Part shown: positions 3,955 to 63,700 of the stretch, piece by piece
Layout of the letters: the number at the start of each line of letters is the position of its first letter
Numbering within the stretch: position 1 is the stretch's first letter
Assembly (NCBI GenBank): GCA_951406725.2
Contig: OX597814.1
Span: 160,022,001 to 160,086,000, forward strand
DNA: 64,000 bases
Origin: Octopus vulgaris
Lineage: Eukaryota
Direction of reading: 5' to 3'
Position numbers and translations under genes: made by a program
Notes under the pieces: generated by a model
The model's input: the letters and a program-made list of their open reading frames with translations, nothing else
What the model was told of the DNA's origin: nothing
Database searches by the model: none

Positions 3955-4612
3955 TGCTGTCCCATTTCGATATATTGTTGCTGTGTGAGTGACCCATTTA
4001 ATTGTTGTCTGTTGATTTATTGTATTTTATTATTGCTAGGCTAAATGTCCCATTTTATTTTATTGCTATTGTATTAGCTGTCCTATTTTATTTTATTGTT
4101 GCTATGTTAAACGTCCTATTTTATATCAGTGCCACTGTGTTAGTAGATGTCCCATTTTATTTTATTGTTGTTGTATTGGTTGCCCTATTTTATTTTATTG
4201 TTGTTAAGCCAAATGTCCCATTTCATATCACTGTCGCTGTGTTAGATGTCCCATTTTGTTATACTATTGTATTAGTTGCGCCATTTTATTTTATTGTTGT
4301 TATGTCAAATGTCCCATTTTATATCACTGTCGCTGTGTTAGATGTTCCATTTTGCTTTATTATTGTATTAGCTGCGCCATTTTATTTTATTGTTGCTAAG
4401 TCAAATGTCCCATTTTATATCACTGTCGCTGTGTTAAATGTCCCATTTTGTTATATTATTGTATTAGTTGCGCCATTTTATTGTATTGAAGCTGTCAAAT
4501 GTCCCATTTTATATCACTGTCGCTGTGTTAAATGTCCCGTTTTATTCTATAGTTGCCCTATTTCATTTTAGTGAGACAGTGTTAAATATTCCATTTTGTA
4601 TTCTTGTTGATG
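3955..4612. repeat. ~30-36-bp minisatellite (TGTCCCATTTTATTTTATTGTTGCTGTGTTAAA); further units at ~4940-4985 and ~5540-5740
   Basis: Repeated gtcccatttt/ccatttt anchors. Unit lengths are mostly multiples of 3, which explains the spurious 189-aa ORF. Confidence 0.85.
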
Positions 4613-5225: not shown

Positions 5226-5423
5226 GCCATGATAGATCAGTAGCCACTACACACATTGTTTTTCTCTCCTTGTTTCTTTCAGTGTTCCTTTCTGTGGAAG
5301 AGCGTAGGCTCGAAACGTAAAAGACTTTTTTCAATTCCTGAGCGTTATATTAATACATGTGTTTGTTTTTTACACCACCTGTCTTCGTCTTTTGTTGTTT
5401 GTTTTTTTTCGTGAATTCTCCCC
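5226..5423 (+). mobile_element. Penelope-like terminal-repeat fragment carrying a hammerhead-like motif (5288-5323)
   Basis: Homologous to the 3' end of the GIY-YIG element at 50625-50833; motif cttt-CTGTGGAA-gagc-gtag-gctc-GAAAC-GTA-aaag. Confidence 0.8.
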
Positions 5424-7577: not shown

Positions 7578-8010
7578 GCGACGAGCTGGCAGAAACGGCA
7601 GAGCTGGCGGAATCATTAGCACGCCGGGCGAAATGCTTGGCGGTATTTCGTCTGCCGTTTCGTTCTGAGTTCAAATTCCGCCGAGGTCGACTTTGCCTTT
7701 GATCCTTTCGGGGTCGATAAATTAAGTACCAGTTATGCACTGGGGTCGATTTAATCGACTTAATCCGTTTGTCTGTCCTTGTTTGTCCCCTCTATGTTTA
7801 GCCCCTTGTGGGTAGTAAAGAAAAAAGTATTTCGTCAGTCGCTGCGTTCTGAGTTCAAATTTCGCCGAGGTCAACTTTGCCTTTCATCCTTTGAGGTCGA
7901 TAAATTTAGTACCAGTTACGCACTGGGGTCGATGTAATCGACTTAATCCGTTTGTCTGTTCTTGTTTATTCCCTCTATCTTTAGCCCCTTGTGGGCAATA
8001 AAGAAATAAG
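7578..8010 (+). mobile_element. OK-like SINE dimer flanked by a single TSD
   Basis: Full unit 7578-7826 followed by a second unit starting GTATTTCGTC at 7827; 13-bp TSD aacatcaataaac at 7565-7577 and 8011-8023. Confidence 0.9.
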
Positions 8011-17960: not shown

Positions 17961-18039
17961 AAAACAGCAGCAGCAGTTTCACCACTACCATCACCACCAC
18001 CACCACCAACACCACAAGCAACATCATCATTATTACTAA

Positions 18040-18255
18040 GGCGGCGAGCTGGTTGAATCGTTAGCACGTCGGGAAAGATGCTTAGCGGCATTTCGTCCGT
18101 CCTCACATTCTGAGTTCAAATTCTGCCGAGGAGGTCGTTTTTGCCTTTCATCCTTTCAAGGTCGATAAATCGAGTACCAGTGAACACTCGGGTCGATGTG
18201 ATCGACTAGTCCCCTTCCCCCAAATTCCAGGCTTTGTGCCTATAATAGAAAGGAT
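18040..18255 (+). mobile_element. OK-like SINE (tail type 2) ending in (ATC)n
   Basis: GGCGGCGAGCTGG head through TTGTGCCTATAATAGAAAGGA tail. Confidence 0.9.
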
Positions 18256-18291
18256 CATCATCATCATCATCATCATCATCAATACCATCAC

Positions 18292-27386: not shown

Positions 27387-27585
27387 CAGTGACCGCATGT
27401 GTATCGTTGGAGATTTTCTTTCTCCGTCTTCCCTTTTTTGAACTTTTTCTATATCTCTGATGAAGAGCTCCGCTCGAAACGTGATATTTTCTTTCTTTTC
27501 TTTCCTTTCCTGAGCGTCCAATAACACTGTACTTATTCCACGACCTCGCGTTGTTTTTTCTTACTTGTTCATGTTTGGATTGACT
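27387..27585 (+). mobile_element. Penelope-like terminal-repeat fragment with hammerhead motif (27451-27487)
   Basis: atatct-CTGATGAA-gagc-tcc-gctc-GAAAC-GT-gatat; homologous to 48787-48995. Confidence 0.8.
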
Positions 27586-30685: not shown

Positions 30686-31603
30686 AGCGAGCCGGCAGAA
30701 TCGTTAGCAGGCCGGGCAAAATGCTTAGCAGCATTTCGTTCGCCTTTACGTTTTGAGTTCAAATGCCGCCGAGGTCGATTTTTGCCTCTCATTCTTTCGG
30801 AATCAAACACAGAATACTACTGTTCCTATGTTTTTTCACTCATTCGGGGTATCATATTTTATATTAAAGATTTTACACTCTCCAAGTAATTTCTGCAACT
30901 ATACAGAACACTGTTATAAACGTAACCTTTCTCGAAATTGCTGGCCTGGTGCCAACATTTTAAATCAATATTTTGCGTGGGAGTTAAGTCGGTGAGCTGG
31001 CGGAAACGTTAGCACGCTGGGCGAAATGCTTAGCTGTATTTCGTCTGCCGTTACGTTCTGAGTTCAAATTCCGCCGAGGTCGACTTTGCCTTTCATCCTT
31101 TCGAGGTCGATAAATTAAGTACCAGTTACGCACTGGGGTCGATGTAATCGACTTAATCTGCTTGCCTGTCCTTGTCTGTCCTCTCTTTGTTTAGCCCCTT
31201 GTGGGTAGTAAAGAAATAGGTATTTCGTCTGTCTTTACGTTCTCAGTTCAAATTACTCCGAGGTCGACTCTGCCTTTCATCTTTTCGGGGTCGATAAATC
31301 AAGTACCAGTTAGTACTGGGGTCGATCTAATCGACTACCCCCCACCACCACCACCACCACCATAAAAAAAAAAATTCGGGTCTTGTGCCTAGAGTAGAAA
31401 AGAATCGTTAACACGCCGGGCAAAATGTTCAGCAGCATTTCGCCCTTCTTTACATTCTGAGTTCAAATTCCGCCGAAGCCGACTTTGCCTTTCATCTTTT
31501 CTAGGTCGGTAAAGTAAGCTCTAGTTGAACACTGGGGTCGTTGTGATCCACTCATTCCCTTCTCTGAACATGCTGGCCTTGTGCCAAATTTGAAACCAAT
31601 ATT
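30686..31603 (+). mobile_element. Cluster of OK-like SINEs including a head-to-tail trimer (30988-31603) with three different tails
   Basis: Unit 1 ends GTGGGTAGTAAAGAAATA; unit 2 (from 31219) ends GTGCCTAGAGTAGAAAAGAAT; unit 3 (from ~31401) ends GTGCCAAATTTGAAACCAATATT. Confidence 0.9.
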
Positions 31604-41294: not shown

Positions 41295-43185
41295 TAAATG
41301 AATCCCCGCGTTACGAAAGCAGTGTGTTCCTGAAAAAGGTACTGCTACGCGAAATCCTGTAATATGGAATAATTTCTTCCATTGCTTTTCATATTATAAA
41401 GTGATAATACATTCTGGCAGATATTTTCTGAAAAATAAGTCCAACACAACAATTTTTATGCATGAAAATAAAAATTTTTCAATACACAATACAGTATGTA
41501 AACGTTAAAAAACATTTGAAGAGAAATATGTTAAGAAATAAATATAAATCATAATATAGCAGCCTGGTACGTTCTTCCCATGAAAGTTGTCGACTACTGT
41601 GTGAGGAGTAGTGATGATGGAATAAGAATTACTGGGAAGATGAGGGACACTATCTTCTAGCTTATGGTTCATCATCATCAAAATCTGCTTGAGGGGAGAA
41701 GTCGTCCAAAATAGCTTGAAATTTATGATGCATTATTTCTTTGTACTGATCAGCGTAGCAACTGAGCAAATGGTAAACTCCTATCGTAATTTTTATGTTA
41801 CATTCATGATTAGGGTTGTTAGCGAAATCTTGCAGAACCTTCTTCTATAAGTGCCAAATTTAGCAATGTTCTTTGCAGTCAATTTAAGTGGAGTTGGTAA
41901 AATTTTCGTATTTTCGCCTGTATTTTCAGCTTTATTTTTGTTTGACAGCGTTAGCTCCTCGTTAGATAACATTCTTCAAGAGGTAACTAAACTACACTAT
42001 CCTTTATGACTTCTTGATATCCTACATCATTTGCAAGTGTCACAATATCTTCGAATTTGATAGTCTTTCTTCTAGGGGTAAGCTTGTAAACTCATGGATA
42101 CAGTATGGCCACATATTCTTCCAAGCACCACTCAAAGTTGACTGTTACCTTCCATACCTATTTCTTTACTACCCACAAGGGGCTAAACACAGAGGGGACA
42201 AACAAGGACAGACACACGGATTAAGCCGATTACATCGACTCCAGTGCGTAACTGGTACTTATTTAATCGACCCCGAAAGGATGAAAGGCAAAGTCGACCT
42301 CGGCGGAATTTGAACTCAGAACGTAGCAGCAGACGAAATACCGCTAAGCATTTCGTCCGGTGTGCTAACGATTTTGCCAGCTCGCTGCCTTGTTTCCTTT
42401 CATACCATGACTTAGCTATGCTGTCCACAACATGCATTATGGAGAACTTCTTCCAGAAGTTTCTAACTATAAATTCATCCTTCTTGTCAATTGCTTTTAT
42501 ATGTTATTTGAAAGTTCGTCTCAATCTACCTTGAATTTAGCCATACATCTTGAACATTTAGTTAGAAAAAAGAAGTTGTATTCTTGGGGATATACTGATC
42601 TTTCATTGCCAGAAAGATGTTCTAAGTTCACTGGGTTGATTGGTGCTATATCTAAAACGAGCAATGCTTTGTTAAAAATATTGTTTGGTACTGTGCAGGG
42701 CAAAAATGTTTGTAAATCACTCTTCCAAAAAGTTATAAGTCTTCTATCCATTCCTAATTTAACCGCCAAATTAGTGGAAAATTAAACTTAAGGTAACCCT
42801 TGAAAGTAATACTGGTGTAGAGGCTTTAATTTTATATCACCGGCGGTATATTCTTGCAGAATAAGTGTCAGAGGATTTTTGGAAGTTTTAAATCCTGGCA
42901 TTGGTTTCTGTTCTCGAGAAATAAAAATTCTAGCAGGCTTGAACTAGAGAAGTGCAGTTTTATCAATAGCTCTAGACTGTAGCCCCACCCTAGCACTCAT
43001 AAAATTTTTCTTCAGCTGCTCAGATAATTACTAGCAGCCTCTGTATCAGTACTGACAGCTTAACTAGTCATTTTTATGTTGTGCAGATTCAAGCACTTCT
43101 TAAACTTTCAAGCCAGATTTTAGAGTCAGAAAAGGTTTTACATTGGAAGTTTCACTTTCTTTTTCCGCAAATTGCCATACAAACT
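41295..43185 (-). mobile_element. Tigger/pogo transposase fossil (CENP-B-like DDE_1), interrupted by an OK SINE
   Basis: WL..FKKCLNLHNIKMT..AVSTDTEAA, FISREQKPMPGFKTSKNPLTL..AGDIKLKPL, KALLVLD.AP..P; many stops. Confidence 0.8.
42159..42390 (-). mobile_element. Full-length OK-like SINE (tail type 1)
   Basis: ~16-bp TSD tgtt(a/t)cctt(c/t)catacc at 42143-42158 and 42391-42406. Confidence 0.9.
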
Positions 43186-48786: not shown

Positions 48787-48790
<4 letters not shown>

Positions 48791-48995
48791 ATCCCAAAAA
48801 GAAAGCACAAAAAAGCACAACAACGCGAGAACATGGAACAAATATAGTATTATTGGACGCTCAGGAAAGAAGGAAAGAAGGAGGGTTTAACGTTTCGAGC
48901 GGAGCTCTTCATCGAAAACATAGGAGAAGGAAAGATCCAGAGAAGGGAAGACAGAGGAAAAAAAATCGCCAGCGGTACACACGCGGTCACATTTT
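48787..48995 (-). mobile_element. Penelope-like terminal-repeat fragment with hammerhead motif (48885-48919), between (TA)n tracts
   Basis: Minus strand: gttt-TCGATGAA-gagc-tcc-gctc-GAAAC-GTT-aaac. Confidence 0.8.
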
Positions 48996-49464: not shown

Positions 49465-50833
49465 CCCGGCTCGTTCCCCTGCTCCCGCCCACGTTGCCGC
49501 ACTTGCCCTTACCTCTCCAACACCACCCGCCTCACTAGCACCCACCATCGACCCTATCCCATCATCCACTCCTTCACCTGCACCTCCAGCAATATTATCT
49601 ATTGCATTTCTTGCTCTCTCTGCAATTCCTTGTACGTCGGACAAACGGGACGCCGCTTGGCTGACCGGTTCGCGGAACACCTTCGTGACATCCACCTTGC
49701 GAACGACACACCGGTCTCACGCCATTTCCGCTCCACCGGTCACTCCTTGCAACACCTATCTGTGTTCGGTTTGTCCTTACACAGAGGCCATCCGGATTCC
49801 CGTTTGCGCCGTGAACAGGAATTAATCTTCTCTCTTCGCTCTTATACGCCATTTGGTCTCAACTCTCCCCCACTCCTCATCTAACCCCCCTCTCCCCCTC
49901 CTCACCTATCCTTTCTCCCCCGACCCCTACTTCTTCAGTCCTTCATCCTTTCACCCCTACTCCCCTTCCCTTCTTCCCCCTCCCTCTTCCCCTTCCCTCT
50001 GCTCCCTCACTCCCTCTCTCCCCTTCTCTCTCCCCCTCTCCCTCTTTCCTCCTTCATCCCCCTCCTCCCCTTCCTTCTCCCCATCCTCTCCTCTTCCCCC
50101 TTCTCCTCCCCCTCTTCTTCCCCCTCTTCTCCCCCTCCCCCCTTCTCCTCACTACACCACATGACTTTACACATCACATCACATATGATGTGCCATACTA
50201 ATACACACACCAACTAATACATACTAATACGTACTAATACATACTAGTACATACTAATACTTACACCAACCCTATACATACACACGTCCAGACCCCGCAT
50301 ACGCACTTATACTCTCTCACACACACACATACACCTATACATACCAATACGTACTAATACATACTAATACATACTAATACATACACCAACCCCATACATA
50401 CGCACGTCCAGACCAATCCTACGCACTAATACTCTCTCATACACACACACACACACACACCTTTATACATACTAATACATACACCAACCCTATACATACA
50501 CACATCCAGACCCCTCCCACGCACTATTAGCTGGTCCCTCAACCCTTTTATCAACCCTATTATCTCCCTTTATTTCGCTCTCGCGTCTCATGTTTGATCT
50601 TTGACCTCTGGCCGAAATCAGATCGCCATGTTGATTCGTTAGCTACTGCACGCATTTTTTTCTCTCCTTCTTTCTGTGTTTTTCTCTCTCTGTGTATCTT
50701 TCTGTTGAAGAGCGTAGGCTCGAAACGTTAAAGACTTGTTTTATTTATATTTCCTGAGCGCCATACTAATACAATTGTTCGTTTGTTTTCCACCTGCCTT
50801 CGTCTTTTGTTTATTTTCATAAAGCTTCCCGTT
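49465..50833 (+). mobile_element. 5'-truncated Penelope-like element (Neptune-type Zn-linker plus GIY-YIG endonuclease, ORF to 49884; 3' repeat with hammerhead)
   Basis: C.RPRC.TCP..FTCTSSNIIYCISCSLCNSLYVGQTGRRLADRFAEHLRDI..PVSRHF..R..REQELI..P.GLN; (TA)n at both ends. Confidence 0.92.
50697..50734 (+). ncRNA. Minimal hammerhead-ribozyme variant in the Penelope 3' repeat
   Basis: tcttt-CTGTTGAA-gagc-gtag-gctc-GAAAC-GTT-aaaga: stem I 5 bp, stem II 4 bp, loopless palindromic stem III (ACGT). Confidence 0.7.
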
Positions 50834-51112
50834 ATATATATATATATATATATATGTAAACACATACATACAAAAACACACACACACTCACACATTGATA
50901 CATATAGACACACACACAATTATATACATGCGTATATATAATTATGCATACATATATAACTTCCTGTAACTTCTCTTAATTTATCCAGTTACAGTATTTC
51001 GCCCTTCTCATTCACCTAACATCTAACATCTACTAACATCGTAACCCTGTTTTCTTACTATACTATCATACATATTCATATACATGCATACATACATATA
51101 TACATACATACA

Positions 51113-51148
<36 letters not shown>

Positions 51149-51253
51149 TATATATTTATATATATATAAATTTTACATACATATAAATATATATGCCTTT
51201 ATGTACATATATATGCACACACACATATTTATATGCATACATACATATATATA

Positions 51254-51482
51254 TTTCTTTACTGCCCACAAGGGGCTAAACGTAGAGGGGACAAACAAGG
51301 ACAGACAAAGGGAGTAAGTCGATTACATCGACCCCAGTGCGAAACTGGTACTTTATTTATCGACCCCGAACGGATGAAAGGTAAAGTCGACCTCGGCAGA
51401 ATTTGAACTCAGAACGTAACGACAGACGAAATACCGCTAAGCATTTCGCCCGGCGCGCTAACGTTTCTGCCAGCTCGCCGCC
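51254..51482 (-). mobile_element. Full-length OK-like SINE (tail type 1)
   Basis: Complete from head to GTGGGCAGTAAAGAAAT tail. Confidence 0.9.
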
Positions 51483-51649
51483 ATACATGCATACATATAC
51501 AGACACACATCTGCACACACTAACACATGTTCCTGCAACGACGAAGAAGAAATGGAAATGATAGCTATTGGATAATGCTGGTAGTCGCAGCCTCATCTGC
51601 TCATGTAAGCGGCCACTCGTCCTCATGATTTTCGGTCACAAAGAACTGC

Positions 51650-52403: not shown

Positions 52404-53867
52404 TCATGTGTGTGTGCGTGCGTGTGTGTGTGTTTGAGTGTATGTGTGTGTGTATGTGTATGTGTGTGTATGTGTGTGTAAGTGTGTGTGTGTGTGCGTG
52501 CATGTGTGTGTGCGTGCGTGTGTGTGTGTGTGTGTGCGCGTGTGTGTGTGTGCGTGCGTGTGTGTGTTTAGATATTACTTGGTGTCTTTTTACGTTTCCA
52601 GCTGTTCTTGGATTACAGAAACACGAACTGGTTATCATTTCAGATTTTGTGAAATGTTAATTCTGGTGCTTATCTTTTCAACGAAATGCCGCTTTTCGCG
52701 CCTCCAGTTCCCTTGTTGCAAATAATAAACTGGAAATAACAAGTTTCCAGCCACGAGTTACAATCAAAGGGAACATTGAACAAAATAATAGTGCTCAAAC
52801 ATATTGAAATAGTTTGATATGTATACTCAATTACAGGTGTTTTGAAGAATGTATGTAAGTGCCGCTTAGACATATGTTCATATGTTCATACCGGTATGTA
52901 GGTATGAAGATATATATAGAAGTATATGTGTGAATATGAAGATACAGTGTTTAGAGGAATGTATATAAGTGCAGCTTAGCTATATGTGAATGACTGTATG
53001 AGTATATGAACATATATAAAAGTATATGTAGGAATATAAAGATACAGTGAATAGATATGTATATGTGTTGTTCAGACATTAAATGATAAAAGGAAGAAAA
53101 AGATTAATTCAAAAAGAATCTAATTTTACAGTGTTCAGTGTTTAGTGGTGATGGAGGTTGTCATCTTCTAAATTACAAGGTAGCGGCAGTTATTTGGAAA
53201 CTGATAACCACGAACGGAAGTAGCCGAACCTTAAATTAAAGTCACTCGGCTTTACTGTAAAGAGTTAGACTCTTACTGTAGTTAATCAGGAATATTTCTC
53301 GCCATAATCAGTGTTACCAGCTTAAGGTTCATTAGCGCTGCTTACTAGAAAACTGTCTGAATGTGGTGTTTTCTAAAGCTGGGGAATCGGGTGCTGTCCA
53401 ATAAAATGATATCACTCTATGATTATTCTGATACACCGCTTACAAAATGTCTTGCGGTTGATAAAAGAACACATTACTTTAAAATATAGTGTCGTTGTTT
53501 AAGATAAAGTTTAGTAGAGCGTCCGAAATCTTCAAATAAACGGAGCGTTTCTTGGAAAATCTGAATGCTTTGTATTTAATGTGTAACAGAAATTCCTTAG
53601 CATTCTTACAGAGAATGGTATTTCATTTTAGTTCGTTTTGAATACATTAAGAAACACTTTAGCAATACTAAAATAAACTAGCTCTGATGAGCTAATGACG
53701 ATGTCTTGTAGTGGTTACTCGACTTGCCAGAAATAGCAACAAATATTTGTGTGCGTGCGTCTGTTTGAGGATGTAATTATATGTGTAATTTTGAAATGAT
53801 CGAATATATTAAAATATGAGGCTACTAGGTCACGGTTTTAAGCTTAAATATTCTACAGACATTAAAA

Positions 53868-54097
53868 GGCGGCGAGCTGGCAGAAACGTTAGCACGCCGG
53901 GCTAAATTCGTAGCCGTATTTCGTCTGTCGATACGTTCCGAGTTCAAATTCCGCCGAGGTCGACTTTGCCTGTCATCCTTTCTGGGGCGATTAAATAAGT
54001 ACCAGTTACGCACTGGGGTCGATGTAATCGACTTAATCTCTTTGTCTGTCTTTGTGTGTCCCCTCTGTGTTTAGCCCCTTGTGGGTAGTAAAGAAAT
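53868..54097 (+). mobile_element. Full-length OK-like SINE (tail type 1)
   Basis: 18-bp TSD atatt(c/t)tacagacattaa at 53848-53865 and 54098-54115. Confidence 0.92.
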
Positions 54098-55166
54098 ATA
54101 TTTTACAGACATTAATGCGTGTTTCAATTTGCATAGCATGCTGGAAGTGCGTATTTGATTTGCTGGAGAGGTAAATTCCTTACTTATCAGTTTAATAGCA
54201 CTTGAGCTAAGCACCAGGTTTCTTAGTTTTGTGAATCATTGAGAATAGTTTAACACATAAGGATCTCACGGGTTCGAGAGTGAGTAAACCCGTTGATCTA
54301 CATACTTATTGATATATAGTGTAAATGGCTTAGGTTGGTGGGAGGAGAGGAAAAAATTAGCCTCAGACTTAGAGATATAACTCAAACGCTTGCGGTACAG
54401 TGCACCTAATAACAACAACGATTCTTCTGGCCGGTTTTCACACTATTCCGGTCAAGCAAATTTCACTTACAAGACTTCGAGCGATCTGAGAATATGGTAG
54501 AAAACATTTGCTCAAAGTATTGCGGTGTGCGAGCAAACCCGAAATACGATACATATAAAAGGAAACCTTTTAAACTCGGTTACTTGGATATAGGCCGAAA
54601 CGTTTTAGAGACAATAACTATGGGAAGAATTTTCTCTAAGACAAAATCTCTCAGCGAATGCCGTTAGCATTCGAATATGCAGAAACGAGTTGATAACAAT
54701 AGTGCACATATTTATTTGATCATCTCTGCTTCATGCGCTTATACTATCTATCTACATGCATGCATGCATGCATGTATGTATGAATGTATGTATGTATGTA
54801 TGTATGTATGTATGTATGTATGTATGCATGTATGCATGCATGCATGCATGTATGTATGTATGTATGTATGTATGTATGTATGTACGTATGCATGTATGTC
54901 TCTTCTATATTTTAATTCTTATAAATCTTCCGACAAAGATACAAGTCCCCATCTTTGAGATGTAGTTAACACAGACAAATTCACATTTGGAACTTGAGGA
55001 AAGTCTTGCATATTTATACTGTTCCACTCACAAATTGGACTTGTAATGTACGAATCAGCCGGTGAATTTCTCTCTCTGAAAATCCCAGTTTATACAAGAT
55101 TCTCCTTTAAGCTTATGCATGTATGTATGTATGTATGTATGAACGCCTGCATGCATCTCTTTCTCT

Positions 55167-57126: not shown

Positions 57127-57169
57127 GCTACTATTAATAACAAGATCAGTAACAACAACAACAATGATA

Positions 57170-57382
57170 ATCCTTTCTACTATAGTCAGAAGGTCTGAAA
57201 TTCTGGGGGAGAGAGCTAGTCGATTACATCGACCTCAGTATGTAACTGGTACTTATTTCAAAGAGCTCGAAACGATGAAAGGCAATGTCAACCTCGACGG
57301 AAATTGAACTCAGTAAGTAAAATCAAAGAAATACAGGTAAGCATTTTCTCCGGCACGCTAATGATTTTACCTGCACACCGCT
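57170..57382 (-). mobile_element. Degenerate OK-like SINE (tail type 2)
   Basis: gtcgattacatcgacc..aactggtactt..gatgaaaggcaa blocks. Confidence 0.75.
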
Positions 57383-57667
57383 TTCTTTAGTGCTTTATTA
57401 ACTAATATGGTAGTGTCTGTATTTACCGACGCATAGAATTTTGCACAGCATACATAATATCCACTTTTCTTTTTCTCACTCTCACCCTCTCTCGCATTTC
57501 TCGACACTTCTTTCATTCTCATCCCTTTCCCTCCTCCTTTACCTCAGTCTGTCCCTTTCCGTTTTTTGCTCTCTTTCTCGTCCCTCCCTAATTCTTCAAT
57601 CCCTCTTTCAACTACCTCTCTTCTCCCCGTCTACGCGACCGGTGTTCGGCCAAGCCTGACCTTTCTT

Positions 57668-58039: not shown

Positions 58040-58275
58040 TCTTTCTTCCACTTCCGGTCACTTTAGAAATGTAACCGTACGTGGATTCTTGGTGATTTTT
58101 TTCCATCTTTCTCTTTGGAATTTTCTCTTTCCGACGAAGAGCTATACTTGAAACGTTAATAACTCTCTCCTTTCCCGAAGCGTCAAATTAATACATTTCT
58201 TGTACACGTCCTCACGTTCATTTTTTTCTACTTTGCGCCGTATTTTAATTGTTTGTTTTTTAATTGACTATATTT
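58040..58275 (+). mobile_element. Degenerate Penelope-like terminal repeat with decayed hammerhead (58128-58160)
   Basis: ttt-CCGACGAA-gagc..cttGAAACGTTaa; homologous to 27387-27585. Confidence 0.6.
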
Positions 58276-60292: not shown

Positions 60293-60294
<2 letters not shown>

Positions 60295-60610
60295 CGGTAA
60301 GCTTTATGAAAATAGACAAAAGACGAAGGCAGGTTTACGGAAATAAACAAAAGACGAAGGCAGGTGGAATATAAACAAGCAATTGTATTAGTATGGCGCT
60401 CAGGAAATATAAATGAAACAAGTCTTTAACGTTTCGAGCCTACGCTCTTCAACAGAAAGATACACAGAGAAAAAAACACAGAAAGAAGGAGAGAAAAAAA
60501 TATGCGTGCAAAAGCTAGCGAATCAACATGGCGATCTGATTTCGGCCAGAAATCAAAGATCAAACATGAGACGCAAGAGCGAAATTAGGGGAGATAATAG
60601 GGTTGAATGA
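60293..60610 (-). mobile_element. Penelope-like terminal repeat closely similar to 50540-50833, hammerhead at 60423-60460
   Basis: Motif identical to 50697-50734; 3' end abuts (TA)n. Confidence 0.88.
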
Positions 60611-62899: not shown

Positions 62900-63700
62900 A
62901 TGCACCGCAACCACATTTAGCTGATCTCAGCTTCTTTGAGGTAATTTTAGTTGTTTGTTTTCCAAACTAGACTTCTGTACAAAATATCGCACAAACCTTG
63001 CCGAAAAAATGCAGCAGCCGACTTCAATGGGGGAATGAATCTGAGTGGCACCCTTTAACATGAGACTCATCAAGGAAGACCTGGTATCTAGCTTTACTTA
63101 GTGGTGTTATTTGCAACCTGACGTTGATGGTAAATTCGATTCATAGATAGGCGGCGAGCTAGCAGAAACGTTAGCACGCCGGGCGAAATGCTTTGTGGTA
63201 TTTCGTCCGCCGCTGCGTTCTGAGTTCAAATTCCGCCGAGGTCGACTTTGCCTTTCATCCTTTCGGGGTCGATAAATTAAGCACCAGTTACGCAGTGGGG
63301 TCGATGTAATCGACTTAACCTGTTCGTTTGTCCTTGTTTGTCCCCTTGTGGGTAGTAAAGAAATAGGTAAATTCGATTCATAGGATTTCCTCTCGTATCT
63401 GAATACCTAGAGGATCTCGTCTCGGAGCCCGCTGGGCTTTCAGTTTCACCTGCTCTTCTTGCGCACTGGACAGATTGAGCAAAGTGGTCCTCGGCACTAT
63501 GATCTTATTCTTGGTTCTGGTTCTTATTTGACTGGTAAGTTGTTTCAATGCCTTTAGATATAGAACTTTGGGTAGCATCAGGTACTTTGCGTTGTTGCTC
63601 TTTGCACTTAAATTTGCTTTGGTGAATGTTCATGCTGCGTTCATACTTGAATGCCTACCATTCTATTTTTCTTTTTGCAATCATCTTAGCACCCTTCCCC
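62900..63700 (-). mobile_element. Probable N-terminal remnant of a HERO/NeSL-type RLE retrotransposon, split by an OK SINE
   Basis: AFKYERSMNIHQSKFKC (N-terminal Zn-finger-like), then HSAED, then SNLP..LD...LMLKG after the SINE is removed; heavily decayed. Confidence 0.45.
63150..63365 (+). mobile_element. Full-length OK-like SINE (tail type 1)
   Basis: 18-bp perfect TSD ggtaaattcgattcatag at 63129-63146 and 63366-63383. Confidence 0.92.

What the first reader, a model, noticed from the sequence alone, without database searches (positions are those of the whole stretch)
49465..50833. Penelope element plus dispersed short copies carrying a minimal, core-variant hammerhead ribozyme
Seen: the GIY-YIG element ends in a repeat containing tcttt-CTGTTGAA-gagc-gtag-gctc-GAAAC-GTT-aaaga. 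Related 200-300-bp pieces recur at 5226, 27387, 48787, 58040 and 60293. They keep stem II (GAGC/GCTC) with different loops (gtag vs tcc), and stem I covaries (tcttt/aaaga, cttt/aaag, gttt/aaac). Stem III is reduced to the loopless palindrome ACGT, and there is an extra A after CUGANGA. One subfamily has U instead of the normally invariant A6 in all three copies (5292, 50702, 60455). Established: Penelope-like elements carry minimal hammerheads, some of which cleave only as dimers. Inference: this is a cephalopod lineage of obligate-dimer hammerheads with a fixed non-canonical core, spread as solo terminal repeats or retrozyme-like non-autonomous units.
Basis: partly seen in the sequence, partly recalled or inferred. 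Interest (0 to 1): 0.8.

Follow-up and report, generated by a model that had tools for sequence, protein, structure and literature searches.

The report
Penelope hammerhead with fixed U6 core
This is the truncated tail of a young Penelope-like jumping gene whose terminal hammerhead (self-cutting RNA) motif has U instead of a normally invariant catalytic-pocket A in about 23,000 genomic copies while the rest of the motif stays conserved, so it is likely a slowed but still used ribozyme that standard hammerhead searches would miss.

Summary
Confirmed and extended. The stretch is a 5'-truncated copy of a young Neptune-type Penelope-like element (PLE); intact ~4.5-kb units flanked by two hammerheads exist elsewhere in the genome. 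The minimal hammerhead, extra nucleotide after A9 and ACGU palindrome are published PLE features. The apparently new part is position 6: U in 15,730 exact motifs against 180 A (background T-to-A 106-113), in 82 of 84 copies picked by flank and 29 of 29 picked by protein. N7 takes all four bases and H17 stays A/U, as in a working hammerhead, across subfamilies up to 0.38 apart at four-fold sites. A sister clade keeps A6. The short window copies fit 5' truncations, not solo repeats, though separate 434-538 bp tandem units exist. Both ends of full units share locus-private variants, which suggests a circular or re-read RNA template. Cleavage is untested: no RNA data, and no pile-up of 5' ends at the cut site. 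Best reading: an attenuated, likely protein-assisted dimeric ribozyme (0.5); rival: a non-cleaving RNA signal (0.25). Lunse 2017 was unavailable and might list U6. This scan's earlier notes held nothing alike by sequence or place.

The parts
49465..50833 (+). 5'-truncated copy of a young Neptune-type Penelope-like element, between (TA)n runs
   Evidence: 95.5% identical over 1,410 columns to the 3' end of an intact unit (L125); 150 scored genome hits to its protein end are 96-100% identical
49465..49884 (+). C-terminal ORF fragment: CX4CXXC linker, GIY-YIG endonuclease, stop codon
   Evidence: full ORF of a sister copy has RVT_1 (E 9e-8) and GIY-YIG
49885..50696 (+). 3' UTR / upstream part of the pseudo-LTR: C-rich tract, degenerate CATACTAATA repeats, weak hairpin near 50590-50630
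   Evidence: hairpin z 0.07, not significant
50697..50734 (+). Minimal type I hammerhead motif: stem I 50697-50701/50730-50734, C3 50702, U6 50705, N7 50706, extra A 50709, stem II 50710-50713/50718-50721, loop GUAG, palindrome ACGU 50725-50728, H17 50729
50751..50760 (+). Downstream motif TTCCYGAGCG shared by U6 and A6 clades, role unknown
50825..50840 (+). Common 3' end (cccgtt) joined to (TA)n; in full units the element itself continues ATATATT here, so likely a reverse-transcription start with short target homology
5226..5423 (+). Short 5'-truncated copy, older U6 subfamily (N7=G, H17=A); ends approximate
60293..60606 (-). Short 5'-truncated copy of the young U6 subfamily (C3 at 60455)
   Evidence: 92% to the focal copy
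27387..27585 (+). Short copy of the A6 / triloop sister clade, stem I damaged; ends approximate
48787..48990 (-). Short copy of the A6 / triloop sister clade, C3-U4 damaged; ends approximate
58040..58260 (+). Old, decayed A6 copy (C3 at 58131, stem II broken); ends approximate

Best explanation
The stretch is a 5'-truncated insertion of a young Neptune-type Penelope-like retroelement whose terminal repeat carries a minimal hammerhead motif fixed for U at core position 6, and that motif is likely a slowed, protein-assisted ribozyme that would cleave only as a dimer and only in a minority of transcripts. Shown: the element, its intact 4.5-kb form with a U6 motif at both ends, U6 fixation, conservation of the rest of the motif, read-through of the motif in most copies, and shared private variants at both ends of full units. 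Inferred: reverse transcription starts about 104 nt downstream of the cut site, primed at a nicked (TA)n target, and has to pass the hammerhead to copy the ORF, so fast cleavage would destroy the template; U6 lowers the chemistry and, in some subfamilies, is predicted to pair with A15.1 and hide the dimer palindrome; occasional cleavage at both ends plus ligation would give a circular RNA that is copied for more than one turn, regenerating the 5' repeat and producing 434-538 bp retrozyme-like tandem units.
For: U6 15,730 vs A6 180, G6 50, control T-to-A 106 and 113. 82 of 84 flank-picked motifs and 29 of 29 protein-picked motifs are U6; all 80 motifs of 40 full units are U6. Variation follows hammerhead rules: N7 T37/A25/C15/G7, H17 A63/U18/G2/C1, other motif columns C3 to U16.1 77-84 of 84, over four-fold-site distances up to 0.35-0.38. 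Stems covary between families (7 of 9 pairs with double changes, 0 of 500 shuffles; hand-picked related rows). Own 3' end is the strictly nearest of 40 for 19 of 32 upstream repeats; locus-private variants occur at both ends in 7 loci. A natural A6C hammerhead cleaves slowly but detectably (Perreault 2011, passages); the Anolis PLE hammerhead cleaves only with its protein (Frangieh 2024).
Against: No cleavage was measured. In a full single- and double-mutant scan every CUGA change other than the C3-G8 swap was low and unrescued (Roberts 2023, passages). 5' truncations show no clear pile-up at the cut site (16 vs 15 of 100 listed rows at the cut-site TA vs the loop II TA, counted by eye); 1 of 30 near-full copies starts near it. 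Invariance of position 6 alone is not significant at this divergence, so selection FOR U is not shown; A6 is about 1.6 times the background. The predicted U6-A15.1 lock is strong for N7=U, weaker for N7=A, and for N7=C/G it is mixed or reversed. Shared variants downstream of the cut site come from one locus only (L322), so strand transfer on a linear RNA, DNA circles or gene conversion could also homogenise the ends.
Confidence: 0.5

Rival explanations
1. The U6 motif no longer cleaves; it is kept as a folded RNA signal (binding site for the element protein, dimerisation handle, or landmark for the reverse-transcription start), and the ends are homogenised by strand transfer or DNA-level events.
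For: CUGA mutants are low and unrescued; hammerhead mutants did not affect insertion by the Anolis PLE in vitro and no RNA reads ended at its cut site; no cut-site pile-up here; loop II, normally free, is nearly invariant (GUAG), which looks like a binding surface; Naiad PLEs spread without hammerheads.
Against: The free and fixed columns match catalysis (N7 free, G17 rare at 2 of 84, G8 and G12 kept); the dimer palindrome is kept; tandem short units each retain a whole motif.
Confidence: 0.25
2. U6 is compensated: the GUAG tetraloop, the changed stem I or the element protein restores normal minimal-hammerhead rates, making this a new active-site solution.
For: U6 goes with 4-nt NUAG loops and CUUU/AAAG stem I, A6 with triloops and GUUU/AAAY; the U6 clade outnumbers A6 motifs 23,116 to 7,611 (gap ranges differ slightly) and is the one shown to have intact copies.
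Against: The linkage is one phylogenetic event; two U6 copies have a UUCG loop and a U-U mismatch in stem II (L288, L289); no double mutant rescued CUGA changes in another hammerhead; efficient cleavage would be expected to leave cut-site ends.
Confidence: 0.12
3. The ribozyme is slow anyway and U6 is a tolerated accident fixed once in the founder; it has no adaptive role.
For: About 0.4 neutral changes per site are expected along the lineage (rough), so one unchanged site is unremarkable; A6 revertants are slightly above background; all PLE minimal hammerheads tested were slow.
Against: No A6 revertant lineage has expanded beyond a few dozen copies among about 16,000, whereas N7 changed repeatedly.
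Confidence: 0.13

Closest known systems
Minimal hammerheads (min-HHR) in pseudo-LTRs of metazoan PLEs (Cervera and de la Pena 2014, PMC4209133)
   Same: Type I fold, extra nucleotide between 9 and 10.1, G10.1-C11.1, loopless palindromic 15.2-16.2, two copies flanking the ORF, thousands of single copies from truncated elements; the Acropora Neptune example (CUGACGAA GGGC..GCUC GAAA CGU) is close to this genome's A6 clade
   Different: All representatives that I read in their Fig. S3 have A6 (their descriptor required the conserved core; the one core change reported is U3-A8); here U6 is the majority state
Neptune clade of endonuclease-bearing PLEs (described in Craig et al. 2021, passages)
   Same: Single ORF, RT then CX2-5CXXC linker then C-terminal GIY-YIG, partial tandem arrangement, (TA)n targets, hammerhead in the repeat
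   Different: Clade placement by RT tree not tested; hammerhead core variant
PAc Poseidon element of Anolis (Frangieh et al. 2024, PMC11167929)
   Same: Reverse transcription starts inside the RNA downstream of the hammerhead; uncleaved RNA is the usual template
   Different: PAc has its hammerhead across the start codon and starts at a site not homologous to the target; here the motif is about 740 nt upstream of the ATG and the common end has AUAUAU homology to (TA)n
Non-LTR retrozymes of animals (Cervera and de la Pena 2020, PMC7229834; Li, Clavereau and Pollet 2026 preprint)
   Same: Short non-coding tandem units with one hammerhead each, derived from PLE repeats
   Different: Units here are 434-538 bp, carry a minimal U6 motif, have a different junction at each independent locus and are not shown to be amplified families or circular RNAs; the window copies are not such units
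Natural A6C hammerhead of phage Bcep176 (Perreault et al. 2011, PMC3088659)
   Same: Natural change at position 6 with the rest of the core intact
   Different: Single phage example, C not U, full-size stems; kobs below 0.1 per min measured

Membership tests
Endonuclease-bearing PLE | One ORF with RT and C-terminal GIY-YIG | tested here: met
   RVT_1 E 9e-8 and GIY-YIG E 0.02 (below curated cut-off) in L130 ORF, 966 aa
Endonuclease-bearing PLE | Partial-tandem pseudo-LTRs and 5'-truncated copies | tested here: met
   40 units with two motifs 4.0-4.6 kb apart among 57 long loci; scattered 5' ends
Neptune clade | CX2-5CXXC linker between RT and endonuclease | tested here: met
   CSRPRCRTC; feature as stated in Craig 2021; shared with Nematis
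Neptune clade | RT phylogeny groups with named Neptune elements | not testable with these tools
   none of the 120 listed homologues carries a PLE clade name
PLE minimal hammerhead | Stems I and II, extra nucleotide after A9, palindromic loopless helix III, NUH site | tested here: met
PLE minimal hammerhead | Core C3 U4 G5 A6 N7 G8 A9 / G12 A13 A14 | tested here: not met
   position 6 is U in 82 of 84 and 29 of 29; all other core positions met
PLE minimal hammerhead | Self-cleavage as a dimer | not testable with these tools
   no assay; no raw RNA reads listed
Non-LTR retrozyme (window's short copies) | Tandem monomers each with a hammerhead | tested here: not met
   window copies are single, with the element's common 3' end
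Non-LTR retrozyme (short units elsewhere) | Tandem non-coding monomers each with a hammerhead | tested here: met
   8 loci with 434-538 bp spacing; L335 has five motifs, units differing by 0-1 position
Non-LTR retrozyme (short units elsewhere) | Expressed as circular RNA | not testable with these tools
   contigs only

The most novel reading that the evidence does not exclude
The dominant, still-intact Penelope-like lineage of this genome has been selected for a de-tuned hammerhead (U6) that self-locks as a monomer and cuts rarely, feeding a circular RNA template that is reverse-transcribed for more than one turn; the same machinery keeps spawning new retrozyme-like circles from internal deletions. 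This would be a natural case of a ribozyme core substitution selected to slow catalysis, and genomic support for the rolling-circle origin of Penelope pseudo-LTRs.
Probability: 0.3. Interest if true: 0.75.

Novelty: new variant of a known kind. Interest (0 to 1): 0.52.

Why it matters
What PLE hammerheads do in vivo is an open question: they are slow, need protein in the one system tested, and were dispensable for insertion in vitro. Here one genome holds a natural pair: an A6 clade and a three times larger U6 clade with intact elements, so cleavage rate can be set against transposition directly. If U6 cleaves, the 'invariant' hammerhead core is wider than assumed and descriptor searches that fix CUGANGA miss about three quarters of such motifs in this genome, which also bears on claims that some PLEs lack hammerheads. 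If it does not cleave, it is a clean case of a ribozyme kept for a non-catalytic job. The end-homogenisation test is a simple genomic assay for circular templates that can be applied to any PLE.

Tried and rejected
Rfam scan: the 150 listed of 254 hits are nearly all microsatellite matches to miRNA models and include no hammerhead; 104 rows were not shown, so absence is not established. BLAST-type DNA search of the own genome found nothing (the tool skips common words) and was replaced by patterns. Metagenome scan for the U6 pattern: 0 hits, without a positive control. Sequencing runs: no RNA holder on record; laying contigs of four runs listed no variant at position 6 but also none at N7, which is known to vary, so it says nothing on U6 in the other organism labels and nothing on expression or RNA ends. 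Cut-site pile-up of 5' ends as a sign of cleavage: not found and confounded by TA microhomology. Downstream GAGCG pairing with stem II as an off-switch: rejected, it does not covary in L345. U6 needing the GUAG loop: weakened by L288/L289. Solo-LTR origin of short copies: rejected by scattered 5' ends (that measure is noisy because microsatellites extend the alignments). An A6 subfamily within the GUAG clade: A6-picked copies fall into the same flank clusters as U6 copies, apart from one three-member cluster and single copies. Lunse et al. 2017 could not be read. Earlier scan notes: nothing by sequence or place; the eight shown for 'hammerhead Penelope' (of 358) did not concern position 6.

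Full report
Observation. The stretch 49465-50833 lies between (TA)n runs and holds the last 139 codons of an ORF (CSRPRCRTC linker, GIY-YIG), a low-complexity 3' UTR and the motif tcttt-CUGUUGAA-GAGC-GUAG-GCUC-GAAACGU-U-aaaga with C3 at 50702. Five related short copies are in the window: two more with U6 (5292, 60455) and three with A6 and a 3-nt loop, all three damaged. The 27-mer occurs 6,181 times in the 2.8-Gb genome, the reversed control 0 times. No call names the host; that it is an octopus is only my recall from the co-occurring SINE.

The element. A protein search with the window's ORF end gave 13,792 candidates, of which 150 were scored, all 96-100% identical. Of 17 loci chosen for long frames or paired hits, 7 have an unbroken frame of 1,000-1,200 codons spanning the start region, RT and endonuclease (L130). 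Among 57 long loci, 40 units have two motifs 4.0-4.6 kb apart: motif, about 740 nt of 5' UTR, ORF, 3' UTR, motif. The window copy is 95.5% identical to the 3' end of such a unit. The linker and the C-terminal endonuclease fit the Neptune description in Craig 2021 (passages); the 120 listed homologues carry no clade names, so the placement is by anatomy. Copies end at a common point about 104 nt past the cut site, followed by (TA)n (51 of 65 tallied ends continue ATATATAT), where the intact element itself continues ATATATT: inferred to be the priming site.

What is already known. Cervera and de la Pena 2014 (main text parts 1-2 of 4, supplement parts 1-2 of 3) describe minimal hammerheads in PLE repeats with the extra nucleotide after A9, the palindromic loopless helix III, low dimer-only cleavage and thousands of single copies from truncated elements. 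So those features are not new. Every representative I read in their Fig. S3 has A6, but their descriptor fixed the core.

Position 6. With loop GUAG and N7 free, exact counts are U6 15,730, A6 180, G6 50; T-to-A at two other positions gives 106 and 113 (C6 not counted). A6 is thus about 1.6 times background, and A6-picked copies mostly fall among U6 subfamilies. With stem II free, U6 motifs number 23,116 and A6 motifs 7,611 (gap ranges differ by one; controls 4 and 6). To avoid picking on the core I took the first 90 listed places (91 copies) of 15,965 matches to a downstream flank pattern: 84 have a scorable motif, 6 are truncated inside or after it and 1 has indels; position 6 is U in 82 of 84, N7 is T37/A25/C15/G7, H17 is A63/U18/G2/C1 and the other columns from C3 to U16.1 are 77-84 of 84. 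These places are all from the first 15 Mb of one contig. Of 30 loci picked by protein alone, 29 have a motif in range and all 29 are U6, at four-fold-site distances from the young subfamily up to 0.35-0.38. My rough reading: about 0.4 neutral changes per site along the lineage, so 25 unchanged columns indicate purifying selection after U6 arose (about 1e-4), whereas one unchanged column does not show selection for U itself. Stems covary between families (7 of 9 pairs, 0 of 500 shuffles, far above slid controls; 15 hand-picked related rows plus one empty row). U6 goes with NUAG loops and A6 with triloops, except two U6 copies with UUCG.

What a U6 core should do. A natural A6C hammerhead cleaves below 0.1 per min (Perreault 2011, passages); in a complete pairwise scan all CUGA changes except the C3-G8 swap were low and unrescued (Roberts 2023, passages). 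Folding 69 distinct U6 motifs gives a mean probability of 0.76 that U6 pairs with A15.1, and the cost of freeing the palindrome is 1.9 versus 1.1 kcal/mol with A; the effect is clear for N7=U, smaller for A, and mixed or reversed for C and G; the A6 clade is predicted to hide the palindrome by other pairings (2.7 kcal/mol). The window motif alone folds no better than shuffles at a significant level (12 of 200).

Genomic traces of cleavage. 5' ends of short copies are scattered, with a broad mode 60-110 nt upstream of C3 (noisy). Among 100 listed of 138 truncation junctions near the motif, 16 join exactly at the cut-site TA and 15 at the loop II TA (by eye): no clear pile-up. Of 30 of the 151 copies that run into the 5' UTR, 27 keep an upstream motif and 1 starts within 3 nt of the cut site. 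So templates are normally read through the motif, either uncleaved or re-ligated, as for the Anolis element, whose hammerhead cleaved only with protein and was dispensable for insertion in vitro (Frangieh 2024, parts 1-2 of 4). In 38 usable of 40 full units the two ends differ by 0.45% against 1.16% between loci, and variants private to one locus sit at both ends in 7 loci; the own 3' end is the strictly nearest of 40 for 19 of 32 upstream repeats of 400 nt or more, not nearest in 12 and tied in 1. Both ends are therefore often copied from one template segment. A ligated circle predicts this, as proposed in 2014; so do strand transfer, DNA circles and gene conversion, and only L322 shows shared private variants downstream of the cut site.

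Retrozyme-like units. Eight loci have motifs 434-538 bp apart: 5' UTR joined to a point upstream of the motif, a different junction each time except L302/L317, which share a junction and flank. L335 has five motifs with units differing by 0-1 position, and L302, L303 and L335 are more than one unit long. They resemble animal retrozymes (passages of PMC7229834; part 1 and passages of the 2026 preprint), but no amplified family or circular RNA is shown, and the window's copies are not of this kind.

Mechanism, marked. Shown: anatomy, U6 fixation, motif conservation, read-through, end homogenisation. Inferred: priming site; slow, dimer-only, protein-assisted cleavage; an advantage of slowness because the RT must cross the motif; circular templates. 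I give this 0.5, a non-cleaving signal 0.25, full compensation 0.12 and a tolerated accident 0.13.

Novelty. I found no report of a U6 hammerhead family in searches (listings and abstract starts); an octopus repeat annotation has no occurrence of 'ribozyme' (passages). Lunse, Weinberg and Breaker 2017, seen only as a reference entry and in a review passage, collected very many PLE variants (recalled) and could already hold U6; bioRxiv supplements are closed and figures are not held. Verdict: a known system with an apparently undescribed, genome-dominant core variant and a useful genomic test of the circular-template idea; new variant of a known kind, interest 0.52.

Noticed in passing
window 50751-50760 and all families: TTCCYGAGCG, 15-30 nt after the cut site, is shared by the U6 and A6 clades while the spacer varies; it does not covary with stem II. 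Possibly a protein-binding signal for the reverse-transcription start.
   Followed up: partly
L335 (G000:C8:18598000-18604500), minus strand: Array of five U6 motifs 492-493 bp apart with an inverted piece of the motif region at its 5' end and a (TA)n/(TAGA)n 3' junction.
   Followed up: partly
L315/L316 (G000:C6:117390000-117406900): At least three full 4.47-kb units in tandem.
   Followed up: partly
L288:1216 (+), L289:849 (-): U6 copies with a UUCG loop and a U-U mismatch in stem II, seen twice, so probably a subfamily.
   Followed up: partly
L345, L346: Other minimal A6 hammerhead families in the genome with different stems (GGAC/GUCC; GACAC/GUGUU).
   Followed up: no
L121, L122, L125-L128: Many young copies lack the stop after the GIY-YIG domain and read on about 100 codons into the C-rich 3' UTR; others (window, L130) stop at LLI.
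   Followed up: no
window 7596-8010, 18037-18260, 30686-31591, 42154-42391, 51249-51485, 53866-54103, 57164-57388, 63149-63369: An abundant ~230-bp dispersed repeat (84-91% identical among the best pairs); from recall it resembles an octopus SINE.
   Followed up: no
N7 across U6 subfamilies: N7 changed at least three times on a lineage with about 0.4 expected neutral changes per site, which seems faster than neutral.
   Followed up: no
window 4019-4601: Tandem repeat with a period of about 100 bp.
   Followed up: no
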